A stretch of 16,681 bases of DNA from a virus: positions 1 through 16,681 of the IMG/VR virus record IMGVR_UViG_3300045988_050197. One strand, 5' to 3'. The first letter of the stretch is position 1, and every line of letters starts with the position of its first letter. This document shows positions 57-7,007 of this stretch, one piece after another. Position numbers and translations under genes: made by a program. A model generated the notes under the pieces. That model made no database searches. It had not been told where the DNA came from and saw nothing but the letters and a program-made list of their open reading frames with translations.

Positions 57-85
57 TTGACAAGTGGTCACACCTGTGCTATAAT
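57..85 (+). promoter_or_regulatory. Early promoter P1 (sigma-A consensus, extended -10)
   Basis: TTGACA (57-62), 17-nt spacer, TGc (77-79), TATAAT (80-85). Both hexamers are perfect. Confidence 0.8.
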
Positions 86-146: not shown

Positions 147-175
147 TTGACAAACTTATCAAGGTGTGGTATAAT
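147..175 (+). promoter_or_regulatory. Early promoter P2 (sigma-A consensus, extended -10)
   Basis: TTGACA (147-152), 17-nt spacer, TGg (167-169), TATAAT (170-175). It lies directly upstream of the first early ORF. Confidence 0.8.
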
Positions 176-956: not shown

Positions 957-1020
957 GGGCGCGTGGTTCGGCACGATTACAGTTTCAACGCTGTCTGCCC
1001 ATTAGCACCTACAAAGGTGT
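957..1020 (+). ncRNA. Structured intercistronic element R1: D-armless tRNA-like module plus 3' hairpin
   Basis: Closing stem 957-961/996-1000 (gggcg/tgccc). Hairpin cgtg-gttcgg-cacg (962-975). T-arm-like hairpin acagt-ttcaac-gctgt (979-994). Then hairpin gcacc-tacaaa-ggtgt (1005-1020). Homologous to 1572-1633 with compensatory changes. Confidence 0.55.
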
Positions 1021-1061: not shown

Positions 1062-1361
1062 ATGGCAAGAGAAAAAATGGTAACAAGGACAGTAACACAG
1101 ACAACGGCAGAAGTTATGACGATTGATGTCACAACGGCAGAAGTACAGATATGTGAGTATACTATCGGCGGTACTTATGATACCAATGAAATATTACTCA
1201 AAAAGCTACAGAAGCTTTTCCAGACCGATACATTCAAGCTTGTAAACATCAATAGTGCCACTGTAGAGGATTTACTTCTCGGAATGACTGAAGAGGACTT
1301 CATCAGATACGCTACGGTTCTTCCACCTAGAAATGCTAGAAAAGAAAGTGAGGCTGAATAG
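1062..1361 (+). CDS. phi29 p6-like double-stranded DNA-binding (histone-like) protein, paralog A (99 aa)
   Basis: RBS AGAAGAGGT precedes the ATG. It is a gap-free paralog of 2220-2519. The N-terminal MVTRTVTQTTAEV and C-terminal GMTEEDFIRYATV resemble recalled phi29 p6 segments (TKTTVNV, LPVEKFLEVATV). It has an acidic tail. Confidence 0.5.
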   Translation: MAREKMVTRTVTQTTAEVMTIDVTTAEVQICEYTIGGTYDTNEILLKKLQKLFQTDTFKLVNINSATVEDLLLGMTEEDFIRYATVLPPRNARKESEAE

Positions 1362-1938: not shown

Positions 1939-1967
1939 TTGACATTTAGATCACCATATGCTATTAT
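1939..1967 (+). promoter_or_regulatory. Promoter P3 (sigma-A consensus, extended -10)
   Basis: TTGACA (1939-1944), 17-nt spacer, TGc (1959-1961), TATTAT (1962-1967). It lies 4 nt after the upstream stop codon. Confidence 0.75.
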
Positions 1968-1974
1968 ATAATTG

Positions 1975-2170
1975 TAGCAAGGTAATAAATAAAAATCCAA
2001 GTTACGTTTGCCATAGGTGGTGTAGGCTTCAAACCAACTACGCCACCTACCCCCCTTAGCAGGTGTAGTTTATTGGTAAAATGCGTGAATCTTAAATAAA
2101 CCCTATCATCGCTCATTCACGTGAAACAGGTTCAATCCCTGTCACCTGCTCTAGTGCTTTATAGCACTAA
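1975..2170 (+). ncRNA. ORF-free structured leader RNA transcribed from P3; candidate packaging RNA (pRNA) or processed leader
   Basis: A 284-bp gap with no ORF. It contains a 12-bp hairpin (2014-2025/2038-2049, one G.U), a C6 linker, a cloverleaf (2059-2150) and a 7-bp hairpin (2152-2169). The 5' end is inferred from P3. The 3' end is not defined by a terminator. Confidence 0.45.
2059..2150 (+). tRNA. tRNA-like cloverleaf with a non-canonical anticodon arm (7-bp stem, 24-nt loop); possibly a tRNA-Lys(CUU)-derived pseudo-tRNA
   Basis: 7-bp all-Watson-Crick acceptor stem (gcaggtg 2059-2065 / cacctgc 2143-2149). U8 and A9. D arm gttt-attggta-aaat with A14, G18, G19 and A21. T arm acagg-TTCAATC-cctgt (2126-2142) with G53, T54, T55, C56, A58 and C61. 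Discriminator t2150; no encoded CCA. The anticodon arm is cgtgaat (2084-2090), a 24-nt loop, then attcacg (2115-2121). Confidence 0.6.
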
Positions 2171-2219
2171 ACTATATCTTGACGTTTTTAAAAAATAAAG
2201 AAAGAGAGGAAGAAAAAAC

Positions 2220-2519
2220 ATGGCAAGAGTACCAATGGTAACACGAACAATTATCACAACAAAAGTCAACGTAATGTGCTTAGACATTGAGACAGGAGAA
2301 CCTTGTAACAGGTCTGTAGTAGTTCCGCGTACTTACAAGGACGACGAAAAGCTTCTTAAGAAAGTGAAAGAAGTTCTTGAAACGGAAACTTTGAAACCGG
2401 TACACATTGTTGACAAGGAAGAGATTGAAACTCTTTATGGCATGACAGAGCAGGAGTTTATTGAACACGCAGAAGTTCAGCCACCTAGAAAAGTAGCAGA
2501 AGAAAACGTAACAGAATAA
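2220..2519 (+). CDS. phi29 p6-like double-stranded DNA-binding protein, paralog B (99 aa)
   Basis: RBS GAGAGGA precedes the ATG. MVTRTIITTKVNVM and YGMTEQEFIEHAEV resemble recalled phi29 p6. It sits immediately upstream of the SSB/TP/polymerase genes, as gene 6 does in phi29. Confidence 0.55.
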   Translation: MARVPMVTRTIITTKVNVMCLDIETGEPCNRSVVVPRTYKDDEKLLKKVKEVLETETLKPVHIVDKEEIETLYGMTEQEFIEHAEVQPPRKVAEENVTE

Positions 2520-2915: not shown

Positions 2916-2946
2916 AGCGTGTACTTTAATCGGTACGCGCTTTTTT
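2916..2946 (+). terminator. Intrinsic terminator/attenuator between the SSB and terminal protein genes
   Basis: 9-bp stem 2916-2924/2933-2941 (one G.U), 8-nt loop, and a T6 run at 2941-2946. Confidence 0.7.
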
Positions 2947-2966: not shown

Positions 2967-3557
2967 ATGGCAAAAAGAAAAAAGAAAGTATCAGCTTATA
3001 CACGTAACAGAAACCGAATCAACAGCTACATAAGAAGATTAAACAAAAAAGGAGTTATCACCGATCTGTATTTTCCGACAGAAAGAGAACTAAAATTGCA
3101 AGGAATAAAAGGTGCAGAGTTAACTCGTTACACCAATGAGTTGAAAAAGGTAACGCCAGATTTCTTAAAAAGTGAAGCTATTCCAATTCCAAAAACGCCT
3201 CAGAACTTTAACGAAAATGGTGATTTAAAAGTCGGTGACGACGGAATGTTTAATAGGACAGTAATAGCAGACATAAAAAATAACGTATCACATTATCCTA
3301 AAGAGATAACTGATAAAGTTACTTCTTTAATTGACCAGTTAATAACTCAGCAGGGTATAGATGATGTAGTAGAAGCTATCTTGTCAGCGCCAGATTTACA
3401 TTACTATTTCAATAAAAATAAGTATGACAGTGAATCAGCGATAGAAGATTACGCTACAGGAATTATAAATGCACTTCCTAGCGCAAGTGACCAGTATAAA
3501 ATGGACTTAGCTGACGCTTTCGAGTTTAATGAATTAGGCTATACCATTGAAGATTAA
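2967..3557 (+). CDS. Terminal protein (protein primer), phi29 p3-like (196 aa)
   Basis: It lies immediately upstream of, and overlaps, the polymerase gene. The N-terminus is highly basic (MAKRKKKVSAYTRNRNRINSYIRRLNKKG, compare phi29 p3 KAKIARTKKKYG). The C-terminal half is acidic. Confidence 0.6.
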   Translation: MAKRKKKVSAYTRNRNRINSYIRRLNKKGVITDLYFPTERELKLQGIKGAELTRYTNELKKVTPDFLKSEAIPIPKTPQNFNENGDLKVGDDGMFNRTVIADIKNNVSHYPKEITDKVTSLIDQLITQQGIDDVVEAILSAPDLHYYFNKNKYDSESAIEDYATGIINALPSASDQYKMDLADAFEFNELGYTIED

Positions 3558-5529
3558 AAAGTACAGATATTTTATGTGCGACTTTGAAACAACTGTTTAC
3601 AAAGGACAAGAGTTCACAGAGGTATGGGCGTCTGCTTCGGTAGAACTATTCACAGAAGATGTTCAAATATTTCACTCGATTGATGAACAGTTTAATTACT
3701 TTGTAAGTCAAGATTGTAATATCGTAGCATATTATCACAACTTAAAGTTTGATGGTTCATTCTGGTTATCATATTTGATGATAGATAAAGGATTCAAACA
3801 AGCATACAGAAAAAAAGGTGAACGTATAAATGAGGTAGAGTGGTTACAGGAAAAATTTATGGAAAATAATTCCTTTAAATATAGTATATCAGATAAAGGA
3901 ATGTGGTACACTATTATTATAAAGGTGAATAACCACTTTATTGAAATAAGGGATTCACTAAAGCTTTTACCATTTAGTGTTAAAAGAATAGGTGATAATT
4001 TTGGCACAAAGCATAAGAAACTTGACATGGAATACACAGGTTTTCGATATGCAGGGTGTGAGATATCAGACAGTGAAAAAGAATACATTGCTAATGATGT
4101 CCTTGTTGTTAAAGAAGCACTTGAAATTATGTTCAATGAGGGGCATGATAAGCTGACTATAGGTTCTTGTTGTTTGGAAGAATACAAAGAGATATGTAAG
4201 AAATCAGTCAAGAACCAGTTAGAGTATAAGGAAATGTTTCCAGACGTGTATAATGTGAGTATTAACCCTATAGAATACACATATGAAAACGCAGGAGATT
4301 ATATAAGAAAATCATACAGAGGTGGTTGGTGTTATTTAGTAAAAGGTAAAGAGAACCAAATAAAAACAAACGGAACTACGGCTGACGTAAATTCACTGTA
4401 CCCCTCTATGATGTCGTCGGAATCGGGAAACAGGTATCCAGTTGGTAAACCTTGCTTCTGGAAAGGAAACTATATTCCAGACGAAGCTATAGCCGATAAT
4501 AAGTATTATTTTGTTAGAGTTAAAACAAGATTTTATATTAAGAAAGATAAGTTGCCATTTATCCAGATAAAAAGTTCTTACTTATATAAAGGTACAGAAG
4601 CACTTGAATCGTCAGATATTTATGACAGTAAAACAGATTCTTACTTTTCATTCTATAAAGATAAGGACGGTATATTAAGAGATACAAGGGTTGAATTAGT
4701 CTTGACAATGACAGATTACCAGTTGTTGAAAGACCACTATGATTTAGTTGATTTTGAAATACTGGATGGATGTTGGTTTTATGCTTTGAAAGGTATCTTT
4801 GATGAATACATAGAAAAGTACAAGCACCAGAAGCTTGTTAGTAAAGGTGCATTGCGTGAGTTGGCTAAACTTTTTCTTAATAATCTTTATGGAAAAATGG
4901 CATCTAGTAAAGATTCATCGTTTAAACTGGCATATGTGAAAGATGATAAAACAATTGGATTTTTACCTGTTACAGAATCAAACAAGAAAGCAGGGTATAT
5001 CCCTGTCGGTTCAGCTATCACAAGTTATGCAAGAAACTTTACTATTAGATCGGCACAGGCTAACTTCCATGGTGTTGATAAAGCAGGCTTTATTTATGCA
5101 GATACAGATAGCATACATTGTGATTTACCACCAGAAAAAATAGTTGGAATCAAGGTACATGATAAAAACTTTTGTTGTTGGAAATTGGAATCATGTTGGG
5201 ATAAAGCAATATTCACAAGGCAGAAAACCTATATTGAACACGTAGTTGCTGAAAATCTAATTCCAATTGAAAAACCATACAACAATATAAAATGTGCAGG
5301 TATGCCAAAACATTGTAAAGATTTATTTGAATTATCACTGGCAGGTGATGCAGATAAAAATAAAGAATGGAGTGATGATGAAAAAGAATTTCTGTTCGAT
5401 AAAGATAACAACCCTATTAAACGTGATTATAGTTCATTTAAAATAGGATTGAAAGTACCCGGAAAATTACGACCAAAGAGAATACGTGGTGGTGTATTAC
5501 TCGTAGAAACATCATATGAAATGAGGTAA
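3547..5529 (+). CDS. Protein-primed family-B DNA polymerase (phi29 p2-like)
   Basis: Exo I CDFETT. Exo II HNLKFDGSF. Exo III YIANDVLVV. Motif A DVNSLYPSMM. Motif B KLFLNNLYGKMAS. Motif C YADTDSIH. KxY motif KTYIEH. The tracked start is a TTG at 3547. This gives an N-terminal length like phi29 (MYSCDFETT versus RYFMCDFETT). The alternative start is the ATG at 3574. Confidence 0.97.
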   Translation: MKIKKYRYFMCDFETTVYKGQEFTEVWASASVELFTEDVQIFHSIDEQFNYFVSQDCNIVAYYHNLKFDGSFWLSYLMIDKGFKQAYRKKGERINEVEWLQEKFMENNSFKYSISDKGMWYTIIIKVNNHFIEIRDSLKLLPFSVKRIGDNFGTKHKKLDMEYTGFRYAGCEISDSEKEYIANDVLVVKEALEIMFNEGHDKLTIGSCCLEEYKEICKKSVKNQLEYKEMFPDVYNVSINPIEYTYENAGDYIRKSYRGGWCYLVKGKENQIKTNGTTADVNSLYPSMMSSESGNRYPVGKPCFWKGNYIPDEAIADNKYYFVRVKTRFYIKKDKLPFIQIKSSYLYKGTEALESSDIYDSKTDSYFSFYKDKDGILRDTRVELVLTMTDYQLLKDHYDLVDFEILDGCWFYALKGIFDEYIEKYKHQKLVSKGALRELAKLFLNNLYGKMASSKDSSFKLAYVKDDKTIGFLPVTESNKKAGYIPVGSAITSYARNFTIRSAQANFHGVDKAGFIYADTDSIHCDLPPEKIVGIKVHDKNFCCWKLESCWDKAIFTRQKTYIEHVVAENLIPIEKPYNNIKCAGMPKHCKDLFELSLAGDADKNKEWSDDEKEFLFDKDNNPIKRDYSSFKIGLKVPGKLRPKRIRGGVLLVETSYEMR

Positions 5530-5534
5530 AAAAT

Positions 5535-5714
5535 ATGGAATTTGAATTTAAAGATATGAAATGTAAATGTGGTAGTAATAAATTTGCAATGATGAAAAAA
5601 GGGAGTCAAACAGGACTATATTGTGCTAGTTGTGGGAAATGGATAAAGTGGTTAAGTAAAGACGAGAAAAATTTAATTAAATTGAAATTAAATTCAATAT
5701 ATGGTATGAAATAA
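5535..5714 (+). CDS. Small zinc-ribbon protein (59 aa), absent from the ORF track
   Basis: The ATG at 5535 lies 8 nt after GAGG (5523-5526). My translation is MEFEFKDMKCKCGSNKFAMMKKGSQTGLYCASCGKWIKWLSKDEKNLIKLKLNSIYGMK. It has a CxC...CxxC pattern, and the stop is at 5712-5714. Confidence 0.55.
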   Translation: MEFEFKDMKCKCGSNKFAMMKKGSQTGLYCASCGKWIKWLSKDEKNLIKLKLNSIYGMK

Positions 5715-5758: not shown

Positions 5759-5801
5759 AAAAAACAGAGGGAGAACTAAGTTCTTACCCTCTGTTTTATT
5801 T
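5759..5801. terminator. Bidirectional intrinsic terminator between the convergent early operon and ATPase gene
   Basis: Stem 5765-5776/5780-5793 (12 bp with a 2-nt bulge, 3-nt loop). It is flanked by A6 (5759-5764) and TTTTATTT (5794-5801), so either strand reads a hairpin followed by a U-run. Confidence 0.75.
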
Positions 5802-5918
5802 ATATCTGTAACTCATGTGTTATTCATTGCGTTCAGCGAAAACGACAAGTAACACAGGCTCTATACTTTCAAGAGTGCTATCCTATGTTCTCAATGATAA
5901 TCGCATGAGTAGATATAC

Positions 5919-6953
5919 TTAGTAACTAAGTGCGCTTAATGTGGCTTCTTTACATCTTAAATCTTTAAATCTAAAGCAACCACGTTCAAATAAATACCTA
6001 AGATTATTCAAAAAGAAATCGTTACGTTTTAACATAACATAATTGATTTCGTGATCGTCGGTAGTTACACTGATTTTTAAGCCAAAGGTGCGATCTGGTC
6101 TATCATCACAGTATAAGTAGCCATTCTCAGTAAATTCTCTTATACCGAACTCACAACCTTTATATTTAAGTGTGCAAAGGTATTTATTTTTTCCAGTAGG
6201 TCTTTCAATAAAACTCTGATTATCATTCAAATAAACACATTCACTACTATATCCAACATAACTGTCTTTCTTAAAAGCTCGGTTGAATCCACTGGTTTTC
6301 TGTGCTTCGCTTGCTGATTTATTGAATCCCTGTTCTAATACAAACCCGTCACCACGTAAAAATTTTGTATCTTTATGCAGTCTAGCACTAATCTCCATTT
6401 TTGTGTAATATGGATTGATAAGACTGACAGGATTCGCAATCATATACACAGGTACATAACGAACCTGTTTACCCTGTCCTCTTGCGATAGACGTATGAAT
6501 ACTGATGAACTTTCTTACTTCATCAGGACAATAGTGATTAGATTCGCTTTGAAATTCATCAAATTCTAGCCTAGAAATATCAGCAAATAAATGGCTGTAT
6601 TTTTTCAACTGATCCGCACTGTTTAAACTGATAGCATACCCACAGCTTTTTTCGTCTAAGAATAACTCATGAAAGATTCCACTCGCACGTCTTTTTGAAG
6701 TCATGGTATGTCCTATGAAGAAAAGACTGCCTATGTCTTTATAGAATTTATCTACCACGTTATCAAGTTCATAATTATAACGGTAAATAAGTCCAAACTT
6801 TTCGCCTTTATCAAGAAACCTGTTTATGCATAGTCTACTAAAATAAGTTGTCTTTCCTGCGGTTCGGTTGGAAGTAACCATATAGATTTCTGGTTTGTTA
6901 CCGTTGATATCTAACATTGACAATAATTTAGTACCGTCATAATATTTTGGCAT
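5919..6953 (-). CDS. DNA encapsidation (packaging) ATPase, phi29 gp16-like (344 aa)
   Basis: Walker A TSNRTAGKTT. Walker B LEFDEFQ. ANPVSLINPYY and GCFRFKD parallel recalled gp16 segments (NAVSVVNPYF, GYLRFDN). The ATG at 6953 is preceded by GAAAGGAG at 9-nt spacing. The tracked start at 7007 lacks an RBS. Confidence 0.9.
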   Translation of the reverse strand: MPKYYDGTKLLSMLDINGNKPEIYMVTSNRTAGKTTYFSRLCINRFLDKGEKFGLIYRYNYELDNVVDKFYKDIGSLFFIGHTMTSKRRASGIFHELFLDEKSCGYAISLNSADQLKKYSHLFADISRLEFDEFQSESNHYCPDEVRKFISIHTSIARGQGKQVRYVPVYMIANPVSLINPYYTKMEISARLHKDTKFLRGDGFVLEQGFNKSASEAQKTSGFNRAFKKDSYVGYSSECVYLNDNQSFIERPTGKNKYLCTLKYKGCEFGIREFTENGYLYCDDRPDRTFGLKISVTTDDHEINYVMLKRNDFFLNNLRYLFERGCFRFKDLRCKEATLSALSY

Positions 6954-6978
6954 ATCAAAAAACTCCTTTCCATACTTA

Positions 6979-7007
6979 ATTATAACACACCCATTGATTT
7001 TTAGCAA
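6979..7007 (-). promoter_or_regulatory. Promoter of the packaging ATPase gene (minus strand)
   Basis: On the minus strand: TTGCTA (7007-7002), 17-nt spacer ending TGt, TATAAT (6984-6979). Confidence 0.65.

What the first reader, a model, noticed from the sequence alone, without database searches (positions are those of the whole stretch)
2059..2150. Canonical tRNA cloverleaf with a grossly expanded anticodon loop, embedded in an mRNA leader
Seen in the sequence:
- The acceptor stem is a perfect 7 bp.
- Essentially all universally conserved tRNA tertiary nucleotides are in place: U8, A14, G18, G19, A21, G53, T54, T55, C56, A58 and C61.
- The variable loop is 4 nt (tgaa) and the T loop is TTCAATC.
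- The anticodon arm is aberrant: a 7-bp stem (2084-2090/2115-2121) closing a 24-nt loop.
- If the stem is trimmed to the canonical 5 bp, the loop begins A-U-CUU-A-A. That reads as U33, anticodon CUU (Lys) and A37, followed by 21 extra nt (2096-2116).

Inference: bacterial tRNAs are not known to carry short introns of this kind. The element is therefore unlikely to decode as it stands. Three hypotheses follow.
1. It is an RNase P / RNase Z processing signal that releases the upstream leader from the p6/SSB/TP/pol mRNA.
2. It is part of the packaging RNA.
3. It is a decoy for host anticodon nucleases. PrrC and PARIS-type defences target tRNA-Lys, and phage T5 is reported to counter PARIS with its own tRNA-Lys.

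None of these functions is demonstrated here.
Basis: partly seen in the sequence, partly recalled or inferred. Interest (0 to 1): 0.82.

Follow-up and report, generated by a model that had tools for sequence, protein, structure and literature searches.

The report
tRNA-like punctuation element in phage leader
A conserved tRNA-shaped RNA that cannot decode sits just upstream of the DNA-replication genes of a human-gut phi29-like phage, and it most likely acts as a cutting signal for the host's tRNA-processing enzymes that trims and stabilises the downstream messenger RNA.

Summary
Window 2059-2150 (+) scores 51.3 bits on the Rfam tRNA model (gathering score 29). It has a perfect 7-bp acceptor stem, D and T arms, and a 7-bp stem closing a 24-nt loop where the anticodon arm should be. 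It lies about 85 nt downstream of a near-consensus promoter and 70 nt upstream of a p6-like gene.

About 70 of 81 related gut-phage loci carry an element at the same place. Only the 12-bp acceptor/T-arm stack and the T loop (GGTTCRAnnCC) are universal. The stack shows compensatory changes in 10 of 12 pairs. The middle part ranges from 19 to 132 nt and has no consistent anticodon.

In all 102 distinct modules no CCA is encoded and a U lies within 2 nt after the discriminator. In 95 of them a covarying hairpin starts 0-3 nt after the discriminator.

Best reading (confidence about 0.5): a non-decoding "t-element" excised by RNase P and RNase Z, leaving the p6-SSB mRNA with a protective 5' hairpin.

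The pRNA hypothesis is refuted. The true prohead RNA lies at 5801-5916 (-), with covarying interlocking loops. The anticodon-nuclease decoy idea is not supported.

No cleavage has been demonstrated.

The parts
1939..1967 (+). Sigma-70-type promoter (TTGACA, 17 nt, TATTAT, with TG before the -10). The inferred transcription start is near 1974-1977.
   Evidence: 11 of 12 matches, one of the three best + strand sites in the window. Equivalent promoters lie upstream of the element in relatives. The start site is inferred.
1974..2005 (+). Leader hairpin P0 (GUAGC..GG / CC..GUUAC) at the predicted 5' end of the transcript.
   Evidence: Read, and predicted in several relatives. The stem varies compatibly between clades (GUAAC/GUUAC, GUAAUAAGU/ACUUAAUAC). 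Not tested formally.
2006..2013 (+). Conserved single-stranded linker GUUUGCCA. It is part of the motif GUUACGUUUGCCAU at 2001-2014.
   Evidence: Nearly invariant in most clades. It is complementary to the p6 start AUGGCAAG, and RNAfold pairs the two. The match is not significant. Function unknown.
2014..2049 (+). Leader hairpin P1: 12-bp stem (2014-2025 with 2038-2049) and 12-nt loop.
   Evidence: It is present in almost all relatives, with different but complementary stems, and ends 7-9 nt (mostly 8) before acceptor nucleotide 1.
2050..2058 (+). C-rich single-stranded spacer CCCCCCUUA. This would be the 5' leader contacted by RNase P.
   Evidence: Its length is nearly constant across clades. 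The predicted RNase P cut lies between A2058 and G2059 (inferred).
2059..2150 (+). tRNA-like element. Acceptor 2059-2065 with 2143-2149. D arm 2068-2082. Extended stem 2084-2090 with 2115-2121, closing a 24-nt loop 2091-2114. Variable loop 2122-2125. T arm 2126-2142. Discriminator U2150.
   Evidence: Family-wide covariation of the acceptor/T stack is shown.
2152..2169 (+). Hairpin UAGUGCU-UUAU-AGCACUA, starting 2 nt after the discriminator. Proposed 5'-terminal protective hairpin of the processed mRNA.
   Evidence: A hairpin starts 0-3 nt after the discriminator in 95 of 102 distinct modules, and the stems covary. It is not followed by a U run, so it is not an intrinsic terminator (one search lists none here).
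2203..2222 (+). Shine-Dalgarno region (AGAGAGGAAG) and the ATG of the p6-like gene.
   Evidence: The distance from the 3' end of the element to the ATG is 58-75 nt in nearly all relatives.
2220..2519 (+). p6-like dsDNA-binding protein gene. It is the first gene of the p6-SSB-(TP-Pol) block served by the element.
   Evidence: PHROG 6370 'dsDNA binding protein', E = 1.2e-05. Weak C-terminal similarity to phage PZA gene 6 product, E = 0.004.
957..1020 (+). Second, degenerate module upstream of the p6 paralog (gene 1062-1361). It is a Y-shaped element at 957-1000, with a T-arm-like hairpin ACAGU-UUCAAC-GCUGU, followed by a hairpin at 1005-1020.
   Evidence: In 18 relatives the same position holds a clean 46-nt acceptor/T-arm minihelix plus hairpin. 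The window copy gives no Rfam hit and its fold z-score is only -0.9.

Best explanation
The element is a tRNA-derived, non-decoding 't-element'. It is a processing signal in the early transcript that is recognised by the host's tRNA maturases.

Proposed steps:
1. Transcription from the promoter at 1939-1967, and read-through from the two left-end promoters, produces an RNA with this order: leader (P0, P1, C-rich spacer), tRNA-like element, hairpin, p6-SSB(-TP-Pol) mRNA.
2. RNase P cuts between A2058 and G2059.
3. RNase Z cuts after the discriminator U2150.
4. Three products result. Upstream RNA ends 9 nt after the stable P1 hairpin. A 92-nt tRNA-like RNA is released. The mRNA for the abundant p6 and SSB proteins starts at C2151, one nucleotide before a hairpin that shields its new 5'-monophosphate end from 5' exonuclease (RNase J1-type) decay.

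Shown here:
- the structure and its conservation;
- that selection acts on exactly the features RNase P and RNase Z need;
- the fixed geometry of the flanking hairpins.

Inferred:
- the cleavages themselves;
- the stabilising effect;
- the transcription start.
For: 1. Core conservation. The T-loop motif GGTTCRAnnCC lies within 300 nt upstream of the p6 ATG in 71 of 81 loci. In 66 of these, a perfect 7-nt complement to the 7 nt after the T stem lies upstream, against 1.0 expected from shuffles.
2. Covariation. Across 39 distinct cores, the 12-bp acceptor/T stack is 99.1% paired, and 10 of 12 pairs show compensatory changes. Slid controls give 36-46%.
3. Only the core is universal. The middle region ranges from 19 to 132 nt. 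A 4-bp D arm is detected in 39 of 56 distinct middle regions. ARAGORN's anticodon calls are inconsistent. Only 4 of 20 diverse relatives reach the Rfam tRNA threshold. The cultured phage CS229P2 has just a minihelix.
4. RNase Z determinants. All 102 distinct modules have a U within 2 nt after the discriminator, and none encodes CCA. Bacillus subtilis RNase Z processes CCA-less precursors and is stimulated about 200-fold by such a uracil (PMC10100781).
5. Flank geometry. A covarying hairpin starts 0-3 nt after the discriminator in 95 of 102 modules. Hairpin P1 ends 7-9 nt before nucleotide 1.
6. Orientation. All modules are sense to the p6 gene (the single '-' case is a GenBank record whose p6 gene is on the - strand).
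7. Association with the gene. Two p6 paralogs are present in 65 of 83 loci, and each has its own module plus hairpin.
8. Precedent. Plant mitochondrial t-elements, found with the same motif GGTTCRANYCC, generate mRNA 5' ends through RNase Z (PMC1920247).
Against: - No RNA ends or cleavage data exist. All steps after folding are inference.
- A hairpin starting 1-2 nt after the RNase Z site could hinder the enzyme.
- RNase P is thought to have few direct mRNA targets in B. subtilis (PMC10100781).
- A dedicated promoter only about 85 nt upstream, and the strong conservation of the leader (P0 and GUUACGUUUGCCA), are not explained by a simple processing role.
- The inserts that replace the anticodon arm are not neutral in some clades. 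They have invariant blocks UCAUGCG and CGAGGUC and covarying hairpins. The loop flanks in the window's own clade are also conserved. The released RNA may therefore have a function of its own.
- CS229P2 lacks the abutting hairpin.
Confidence: 0.5

Rival explanations
1. A tRNA-scaffolded small RNA. The purpose would be the released about 92-nt RNA itself. The tRNA frame would give precise excision and stability, as in engineered tRNA scaffolds. The clade-specific insert at the anticodon position (here the 24-nt loop) would be a payload that binds a phage or host factor, or mimics tRNA to a host enzyme or defence protein.
For: - In the L024, L054, L030 and L051 clades the inserts keep invariant junction strands (UCAUGCG, CGAGGUC..ACAC) and covarying hairpins, although their acceptor, D and T stems differ.
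- The extended stem in the window's clade is kept by a G-C to A-U compensatory change in 7 sequences, and the loop flanks are invariant.
- This reading shares all the processing-related evidence of the best explanation.
Against: - Many members have no insert: 19-42 nt middle regions in L035, L045, L049, L053, L026 and CS229P2, and all the 46-nt minihelices upstream of the first paralog.
- The payload is not shared between super-clades.
- No complementary target for the window's loop was found in the phage genome.
- The tight link to the downstream hairpin and the p6 start is not needed for a free small RNA.
Confidence: 0.2
2. An uncleaved cis-regulatory leader. The whole leader (P0, GUUUGCCA, P1, C-rich spacer, tRNA-like fold) would stay on the mRNA. 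It would control translation or stability of p6, for example by pairing GUUUGCCAU with the start codon region AUGGCAAG, or by acting as a bulky 5' structure.
For: - RNAfold's minimum-energy structure pairs 2006-2014 with 2220-2229.
- The best non-self complement to the leader motif in the genome is the p6 start, at 11 of 14 positions.
- Both sequences are nearly invariant across clades.
Against: - Duplex energies are not better than shuffles (z about 0 to -2.4 in most loci).
- The 11-of-14 match is within chance expectation: 4 matches found against 1.83 expected.
- Clades with an altered linker (UAGCCA) keep the same start sequence, so there is no covariation.
- This reading does not explain why the strict 7+5 bp tRNA geometry, the T loop and the U after the discriminator are conserved.
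- CS229P2 and the modules upstream of the first paralog have no such leader.
Confidence: 0.12
3. A decoy for host tRNA-targeting defence nucleases (PrrC or PARIS type, acting on tRNA-Lys).
For: - The window's clade keeps A-U-C-U-U-A-A at the 5' side of the loop in 16 of 17 distinct sequences.
- The element is expressed from an early promoter.
Against: - Outside this clade there is no Lys-like or any consistent anticodon loop.
- The universally conserved part is the acceptor/T stack, not the anticodon arm.
- The 24-nt loop is not a 7-nt anticodon loop.
- The element cannot replace a cleaved tRNA in decoding.
Confidence: 0.05
4. A genuine tRNA-Lys(CUU) gene with a short intron that is removed to give a decoding tRNA.
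For: ARAGORN in intron mode calls tRNA-Lys(CUU) with a 21-nt insert at position 38. The Rfam tRNA score is 51.3 bits.
Against: - The fold shows a plain 7-bp stem and 24-nt loop with no bulge-helix-bulge motif.
- 21 nt is far too short for a group I intron, the only tRNA intron type established in bacteria (own knowledge).
- The orthologous elements give more than 12 different 'anticodons' and insert lengths of 7-41 nt.
- Some orthologues lack the arm altogether.
Confidence: 0.02
5. Part of the prohead (packaging) RNA.
For: It is a conserved structured RNA in a phi29-like phage whose pRNA is not found by Rfam.
Against: - A different RNA at 5801-5916 (-), directly downstream of the gp16-type ATPase gene, has the pRNA architecture.
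- That RNA has 27 consensus pairs, 20 of them with compensatory changes.
- Its interlocking-loop complementarity is 95.4% paired, against 15-46% for slid controls, and all 4 pairs covary.
- The Rfam pRNA model works on phage PZA, at 144.7 bits, but gives nothing on the tRNA-like element.
Confidence: 0.01

Closest known systems
Plant mitochondrial t-elements (tRNA-like processing signals; Forner et al. 2007, PMC1920247)
   Same: - Both are non-canonical cloverleaves that keep the acceptor stem and a T arm with the motif GGTTCRANYCC.
- Both lie next to mRNA ends inside longer transcripts.
- For t-elements, RNase Z cleavage has been proposed or shown to create the mRNA 5' end (cox1), and RNase P cleavage the 3' end of the upstream RNA.
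   Different: - The setting here is a bacteriophage in a Firmicute host, not an organelle.
- Here the element is systematically followed by a hairpin 0-3 nt after the discriminator and preceded by a hairpin 8 nt upstream.
- Here it is tied to one gene family (p6 paralogs).
- Here some clades carry conserved inserts.
- No transcript ends have been mapped here.
MALAT1 mascRNA and MEN-beta tRNA-like structures (own knowledge: Wilusz et al. 2008)
   Same: A tRNA-like fold embedded in a long RNA polymerase transcript is cut by RNase P and RNase Z. This defines the end of the flanking RNA, and a nearby structure stabilises the new end.
   Different: - Those elements are eukaryotic nuclear lncRNA 3'-end signals.
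- There the protected end is the upstream 3' end, held by a triple helix.
- Here the main beneficiary is proposed to be the downstream mRNA 5' end, held by a hairpin.
Murine gammaherpesvirus 68 TMER tRNA-like/pre-miRNA units (own knowledge: Bogerd et al. 2010)
   Same: A viral, non-aminoacylated tRNA-like element is followed directly by a hairpin, and RNase Z cleavage separates the two.
   Different: - Those units are RNA polymerase III transcripts.
- Their hairpins are miRNA precursors, not the 5' end of an mRNA.
- The host is eukaryotic.
Canonical phage-encoded tRNAs and tRNA-mRNA co-transcripts (for example the E. coli tufB operon; own knowledge)
   Same: Both are transcribed with protein-coding genes and processed by RNase P plus a 3' maturase. 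Both match Rfam RF00005.
   Different: - The element here has no 7-nt anticodon loop.
- No anticodon is conserved among orthologues.
- ARAGORN in default mode rejects it.
phi29 prohead RNA (Rfam RF00044)
   Same: Both are conserved non-coding RNAs of phi29-like phages whose 5' and 3' ends pair with each other.
   Different: - The element here is a four-way tRNA fold, not a three-way junction.
- It has no interlocking loops.
- The phage's real pRNA candidate is at 5801-5916 (-).

Membership tests
tRNA (Rfam RF00005; decoding tRNA) | Covariance-model score at or above the family's gathering score | tested here: met
   51.3 bits against a gathering score of 29, model positions 1-71, window 2059-2150. 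Only 4 of 20 diverse relatives also pass.
tRNA (Rfam RF00005; decoding tRNA) | 5-bp anticodon stem closing a 7-nt loop with U33 and an anticodon | tested here: not met
   The stem is 7 bp and closes a 24-nt loop. ARAGORN with default settings finds no gene.
tRNA (Rfam RF00005; decoding tRNA) | The same anticodon or identity kept in orthologous genes | tested here: not met
   ARAGORN in intron mode calls Lys, Glu, Ser, Val, Arg, Gly, Asn, Asp, SeC, Tyr, Leu, Ile, Pro and Cys at the same genomic position in relatives.
tRNA (Rfam RF00005; decoding tRNA) | Aminoacylation and use on the ribosome | not testable with these tools
   No conserved identity elements were seen. Pair 3:70 is A-U, G-C, C-G or U-A, and only once G-U. 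The discriminator is U or A.
t-element / tRNA-like processing signal | Acceptor stem stacked on a T arm that carries GGTTCRANYCC, with the rest non-canonical | tested here: met
   The motif is at 2129-2139. The 7+5 bp stack is conserved with covariation. The middle region is variable.
t-element / tRNA-like processing signal | Located inside a longer transcript, at the boundary of an mRNA | tested here: met
   Promoter at 1939-1967. The p6 ATG lies 70 nt downstream. All modules are sense to p6. In CS229P2 and L024 the element starts a few nt after the stop codon of the upstream ORF. That these regions are transcribed is inferred.
t-element / tRNA-like processing signal | The ends of the element coincide with mapped RNA termini, and it is cleaved by RNase P and RNase Z | not testable with these tools
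   No RNA-end data are available. The contig look-up returned only metagenome DNA contigs.
Substrate of Firmicute RNase Z (B. subtilis rules) | No encoded CCA after the discriminator | tested here: met
   None of 102 distinct modules encodes CCA. The window has U2150 followed by C-U-A.
Substrate of Firmicute RNase Z (B. subtilis rules) | A uracil within 2 nt downstream of the discriminator | tested here: met
   All 102 modules meet this (CU 45, UU 30, UC 26, AU 1). The rule is taken from PMC10100781.
Prohead RNA (RF00044) | Match to the Rfam pRNA model | tested here: not met
   No hit anywhere in the window at E up to 10. The model finds the PZA pRNA at 144.7 bits.
Prohead RNA (RF00044) | 5'/3' helix, three-way junction and two loops with intermolecular Watson-Crick complementarity (PMC5066667) | tested here: not met
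   The element is a four-way cloverleaf. The pRNA features are found instead at 5801-5916 (-).
Intron-containing tRNA (archaeal/eukaryal bulge-helix-bulge type, or bacterial group I) | A bulge-helix-bulge motif at the exon-intron junctions, or a group I intron of about 200 nt or more | tested here: not met
   The fold shows an uninterrupted 7-bp stem with an open 24-nt loop. The insert is 21-24 nt. The size requirement comes from established knowledge.

The most novel reading that the evidence does not exclude
The element is a natural 'tRNA scaffold'. The phage would use the host's RNase P, RNase Z and CCA machinery to cut out and stabilise a small RNA whose business end is the clade-specific insert at the anticodon position. 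Examples of such inserts are the 24-nt loop in the window and the UCAUGCG / CGAGGUC junction domain in the L024 and L030 clades. This RNA, or the RNase P-released leader with its conserved GUUUGCCA and C-rich tail, would act in trans on a host or phage target. The same cuts would at the same time mature the p6 mRNA.
Probability: 0.2. Interest if true: 0.8.

Novelty: new variant of a known kind. Interest (0 to 1): 0.62.

Why it matters
tRNA-like processing signals are established in plant mitochondria, in mammalian long non-coding RNAs and in a herpesvirus. I found no description of them as conserved mRNA-maturation devices in bacteriophages. The one review that mentions predicted tRNAs in some phi29-like clusters does not analyse them.

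If the model holds, three things follow:
- Small gut phages use the essential host tRNA maturases to set the ends and stability of the mRNA for their most abundant replication proteins.
- A compact natural cassette (hairpin, tRNA-like minihelix, hairpin) becomes available for engineering expression in Firmicutes.
- Genome annotators are warned that such 'tRNA' hits are not decoders.

The work also locates the missing prohead RNA of this large, mostly uncultured gut phage clade. The current Rfam model does not detect it.

Tried and rejected
- A nucleotide search of 1900-2260 against GenBank phages found nothing. Relatives had to be reached through proteins.
- A MAFFT alignment of full elements from mixed clades shifted the 5' acceptor strand by one column. 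I replaced it with cores anchored on the T loop. Caveat: the 5' strand was chosen by complementarity, so the percentage paired is inflated. The shuffle control addresses this.
- Pairing between the leader and the translation start: duplex energies were not better than shuffles, and the script timed out partway. The 11-of-14 complement at the p6 start is within chance. It is kept only as a minor rival.
- A search for a target complementary to the conserved loop flank AUCAUCGCUCA found only the element itself.
- A look-up of contigs that encode the identical p6 protein, in the hope of finding transcript-derived contigs that end at the processing sites, returned only metagenome contigs.
- Permissive Rfam scans of the upstream module (900-1100) and of the pRNA region gave only chance-level hits.
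- A T-box-like reading of P1 (a UGGN bulge covarying with the discriminator) was considered by eye and rejected, because the discriminator changes without any change in P1.
- Known small-ribozyme cores (hammerhead, twister, hairpin) were compared by eye with the conserved insert of the L024 and L030 clades. No match was seen. This was not tested formally.
Full report
**1. The observation**

- The acceptor stem is a perfect 7 bp (2059-2065 with 2143-2149).
- U8, A14, G18, G19 and A21 are in place. The D stem is GUUU/AAAU.
- The variable loop is the 4-nt UGAA.
- The T arm is ACAGG-UUCAAUC-CCUGU, and the discriminator is U2150.
- The anticodon position holds a 7-bp stem (2084-2090 with 2115-2121) that closes a 24-nt loop.

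The Rfam tRNA model matches these coordinates end to end at 51.3 bits (gathering score 29, E = 1.2e-08), with a 24-nt insertion in the anticodon loop. ARAGORN with default settings rejects the element. In intron mode it calls tRNA-Lys(CUU) with a 21-nt insert. This is the only GGTTCRAnnCC motif in the window.

**2. Genomic context**

The window is a phi29-like podophage of about 16.7 kb and about 35% G+C.

| Coordinates | Strand | Feature |
|---|---|---|
| 2220-2519 | + | p6-like dsDNA-binding protein |
| 2544-2900 | + | phi29-type SSB |
| 2967-3557 | + | presumed terminal protein |
| 3547-5529 | + | protein-primed family B DNA polymerase |
| 5919-7007 | - | gp16-type packaging ATPase |
| from 7053 | + | late genes, including a phi29-type capsid protein and tail knob |

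The nearest GenBank records are unannotated human-faecal contigs (polymerase identity 77%) and the cultured Clostridium symbiosum phages CS229P1-3 (65%).

A near-consensus promoter with an extended -10 lies at 1939-1967. The element therefore sits about 85 nt into a transcript and 70 nt upstream of the p6 start. An intrinsic terminator lies at 2916-2941, between the SSB gene and the terminal-protein gene.

**3. Relatives**

The p6 protein retrieved 80 related loci from IMG/VR. Read by eye, the whole leader architecture recurs in them:

promoter, then 5' hairpin P0, then the conserved linker GUUACGUU(U)GCCA, then hairpin P1, then a C-rich spacer, then the tRNA-like element, then a hairpin, then an A-rich UTR, then the ATG.

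*The universal core*
- Anchoring only on the T-loop sequence, 71 of 81 loci have the motif within 300 nt upstream of p6.
- In 66 of these, the 7 nt after the T stem have a perfect 7-nt complement upstream. Shuffles predict 1.0.
- Over 39 distinct cores, the 12-bp acceptor/T stack is 99.1% paired, and 10 of 12 pairs show compensatory changes. Slid controls give 36-46%.
- Within the window's own clade, all four stems are kept (99.7% paired). One compensatory change each is seen in the acceptor stem, the extended anticodon-position stem and the T stem.

*The variable middle*
- The middle of the element ranges from 19 to 132 nt.
- A 4-bp D arm with GG in its loop is detected in 39 of 56 distinct versions, with 12 different stems.
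- ARAGORN's anticodon calls scatter over 14 identities.
- Only 4 of 20 diverse relatives reach the Rfam tRNA threshold.
- The cultured phage CS229P2 has just an acceptor/T minihelix with about 20 nt in between. It is not annotated in GenBank.

The universal part is therefore the top half of a tRNA. By established knowledge, this is the part that RNase P, RNase Z and the CCA-adding enzyme recognise.

**4. The flanks are positioned with nucleotide precision**
- Among 102 distinct modules, none encodes CCA, and all have a U within 2 nt after the discriminator. This matches the B. subtilis RNase Z rule: CCA-less precursors are the substrates, and a uracil at most 2 nt downstream stimulates cleavage about 200-fold (PMC10100781).
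- In 95 of 102 modules a hairpin begins 0-3 nt after the discriminator, and its stem covaries between clades. In the window this hairpin is at 2152-2169. It has no U tract and is not called as a terminator.
- On the 5' side, hairpin P1 (window 2014-2049) ends 7-9 nt before nucleotide 1, again with covarying stems.
- All modules are sense to p6.

**5. Link to the p6 gene family**

Two p6 paralogs are present in 65 of 83 loci. In the window they are 1062-1361 and 2220-2519, 41% identical. Upstream of the first paralog, 18 relatives carry a clean 46-nt minihelix plus hairpin. In L024 this minihelix starts 6 nt after the stop codon of the preceding ORF. The window's clade has a degenerate Y-shaped version at 957-1000, with a hairpin at 1005-1020. 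The cassette 'tRNA-like element, hairpin, UTR' therefore travels with genes whose phi29 counterpart, by established knowledge, is among the most abundant early proteins.

**6. What the element is not**

*A decoding tRNA.* It has no 7-nt anticodon loop, and its orthologues share no anticodon. It has no bulge-helix-bulge motif, and the insert is far too short for a group I intron.

*The prohead RNA.*
- The Rfam pRNA model finds nothing in the window, although it finds the PZA pRNA at 144.7 bits.
- Directly downstream of the ATPase gene, on the minus strand (5801-5916) and just before a bidirectional terminator, lies a 116-nt RNA. It folds into a long 5'/3' helix and a three-way junction (z = -5.4).
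- This RNA recurs in diverse relatives. It has 27 consensus pairs, 20 of them with compensatory changes.
- A bulge in one arm is complementary to the loop of the other arm, and the two covary: UAGC/GCUG, ACGC/GCGU, AAACA/UGUUU, GGAA/UUCC, CUGUA/UACAG.
- This loop-loop pairing is 95.4% paired, against 15-46% for slid controls, and all 4 pairs covary. It is the hallmark CE-loop/D-loop interaction of pRNA (PMC5066667).

*An anticodon-nuclease decoy.* This is unlikely, because the Lys-like loop is confined to one clade.

PZA, a phi29-group phage, has no such tRNA-like element.

**7. Mechanism proposed**

I read the element as a phage 't-element'.
1. RNase P cuts between 2058 and 2059.
2. RNase Z cuts after U2150.
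3. Upstream RNA ends shortly after the P1 hairpin.
4. The p6-SSB mRNA begins one nucleotide before the hairpin at 2152-2169. That hairpin would protect its 5'-monophosphate end from 5'-to-3' exonucleolytic decay. The relevant background is the RNase J1 5'-exonuclease activity and stabilisation by a 5'-terminal stem-loop, as referenced in PMC2777011.

Processing would give the same stable mRNA whether transcription starts at 1939-1967 or at the left-end promoters at 57-85 and 147-175.

The structure, its conservation and its geometry are shown. The cleavages and their effect are inferred.

**8. What this does not explain**
- *The inserts are not always neutral.* In the L024, L054, L030 and L051 clades the anticodon arm is replaced by a domain with invariant strands UCAUGCG and CGAGGUC..ACAC and two covarying hairpins. 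The L028 clade has a reduced form.
- *The window's own loop.* The flanks of the 24-nt loop are invariant in its clade, while the centre of the loop varies.
- *The leader.* The motif GUUACGUUUGCCAU is strongly conserved and is complementary to the p6 start. The match is within chance and shows no covariation.

These points keep open the possibility that the excised RNA, or the leader, has a function of its own. They are the reason I put the confidence in the simple processing model at only about 0.5.

**9. Comparison with known systems, and novelty**

The closest known system is the plant mitochondrial t-element. It was found with the same T-arm motif and has been shown or proposed to create mRNA ends through RNase Z and RNase P (PMC1920247). 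MALAT1 mascRNA and the MHV68 tRNA-like/pre-miRNA units work similarly (own knowledge).

I found no description of such an element in phi29-like phages. One review notes only that some clusters have predicted tRNAs.

I class the element as a new variant of a known kind. It is a phage-borne, hairpin-flanked t-element family tied to p6 genes, and some of its clades carry conserved inserts.

Noticed in passing
window 5801-5916, minus strand (terminator 5764-5797): Prohead RNA candidate directly downstream of the gp16-type ATPase gene. It has a long 5'/3' helix, a three-way junction, and covarying complementarity between an arm bulge (UAGC) and the loop of the other arm (GCUG). It is conserved in about 40 diverse gut-phage relatives. 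Rfam RF00044 does not detect it.
   Followed up: yes
window 1062-1361, with 957-1000 and 1005-1020: A second p6-family paralog, 41% identical to 2220-2519. It is preceded by a degenerate Y-shaped relative of the tRNA-like module (T-like hairpin ACAGU-UUCAAC-GCUGU) and a hairpin. In 18 relatives the same site holds a clean 46-nt acceptor/T-arm minihelix.
   Followed up: partly
window 2001-2014 and 2220-2233: The conserved leader motif GUUACGUUUGCCAU is complementary to the p6 start AUGGCAAGAGUACC at 11 of 14 positions, and RNAfold pairs the two. The first eight p6 codons are almost invariant at nucleotide level across 80 loci. The match is not statistically supported.
   Followed up: partly
L024:1571-1636, L030:1489-1555, L051 and L054 (the insert inside the tRNA-like element): The anticodon arm is replaced by a conserved multi-hairpin domain. 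Its junction strands UCAUGCG and CGAGGUC..ACAC.GG are invariant and its two hairpins covary. The L028 clade has a shorter version (AAUGCG..CGCUUGUCUGGUCAGCAC). No Rfam family matches beyond tRNA. Its function is unknown.
   Followed up: partly
L003:1796-1887: One close relative has lost both the D-loop GG (AAAGUAAAAA) and the T-loop UUC (AUCAUAA), while keeping all the stems. This joint loss of the two elbow partners suggests that the D-loop/T-loop contact matters in the other members.
   Followed up: partly
L054:1746-2095 and L058:2081-2431: Tandem duplication of the module. An intact tRNA-like element, hairpin and UTR are followed by a truncated pseudo-start (AUGCCAAGAGCACCC..). A decayed second copy of the element then precedes the real p6 gene.
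   Followed up: no
L071-L080 (inside the element), L079:2093-2115, L149 (after the ATPase stop): The perfect palindrome AAUGUUUCACGUGAAACAUU recurs at unrelated positions in different phages. It may be a mobile hairpin or a protein-binding site.
   Followed up: no
L081 (CS229P2) about 2003-2030, and L159 between the ATPase stop and the pRNA: A shared motif, CAUCAGGACUCCG-hairpin-CACCUCAUG, is inserted at different intergenic sites in two phages.
   Followed up: no
window 2916-2941 (+): A strong intrinsic terminator lies between the SSB gene and the presumed terminal-protein gene. This implies high p6 and SSB expression, with attenuated read-through into the terminal-protein and polymerase genes.
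   Followed up: no
window 57-85 and 147-175 (+): Two perfect-consensus (12 of 12) extended -10 promoters in tandem at the left genome end, upstream of the small early ORFs.
   Followed up: no
window 5535-5714 (+): A 59-aa ORF after the polymerase gene has two CxxC pairs (CKCG .. CASCG), a likely small zinc-ribbon protein.
   Followed up: no
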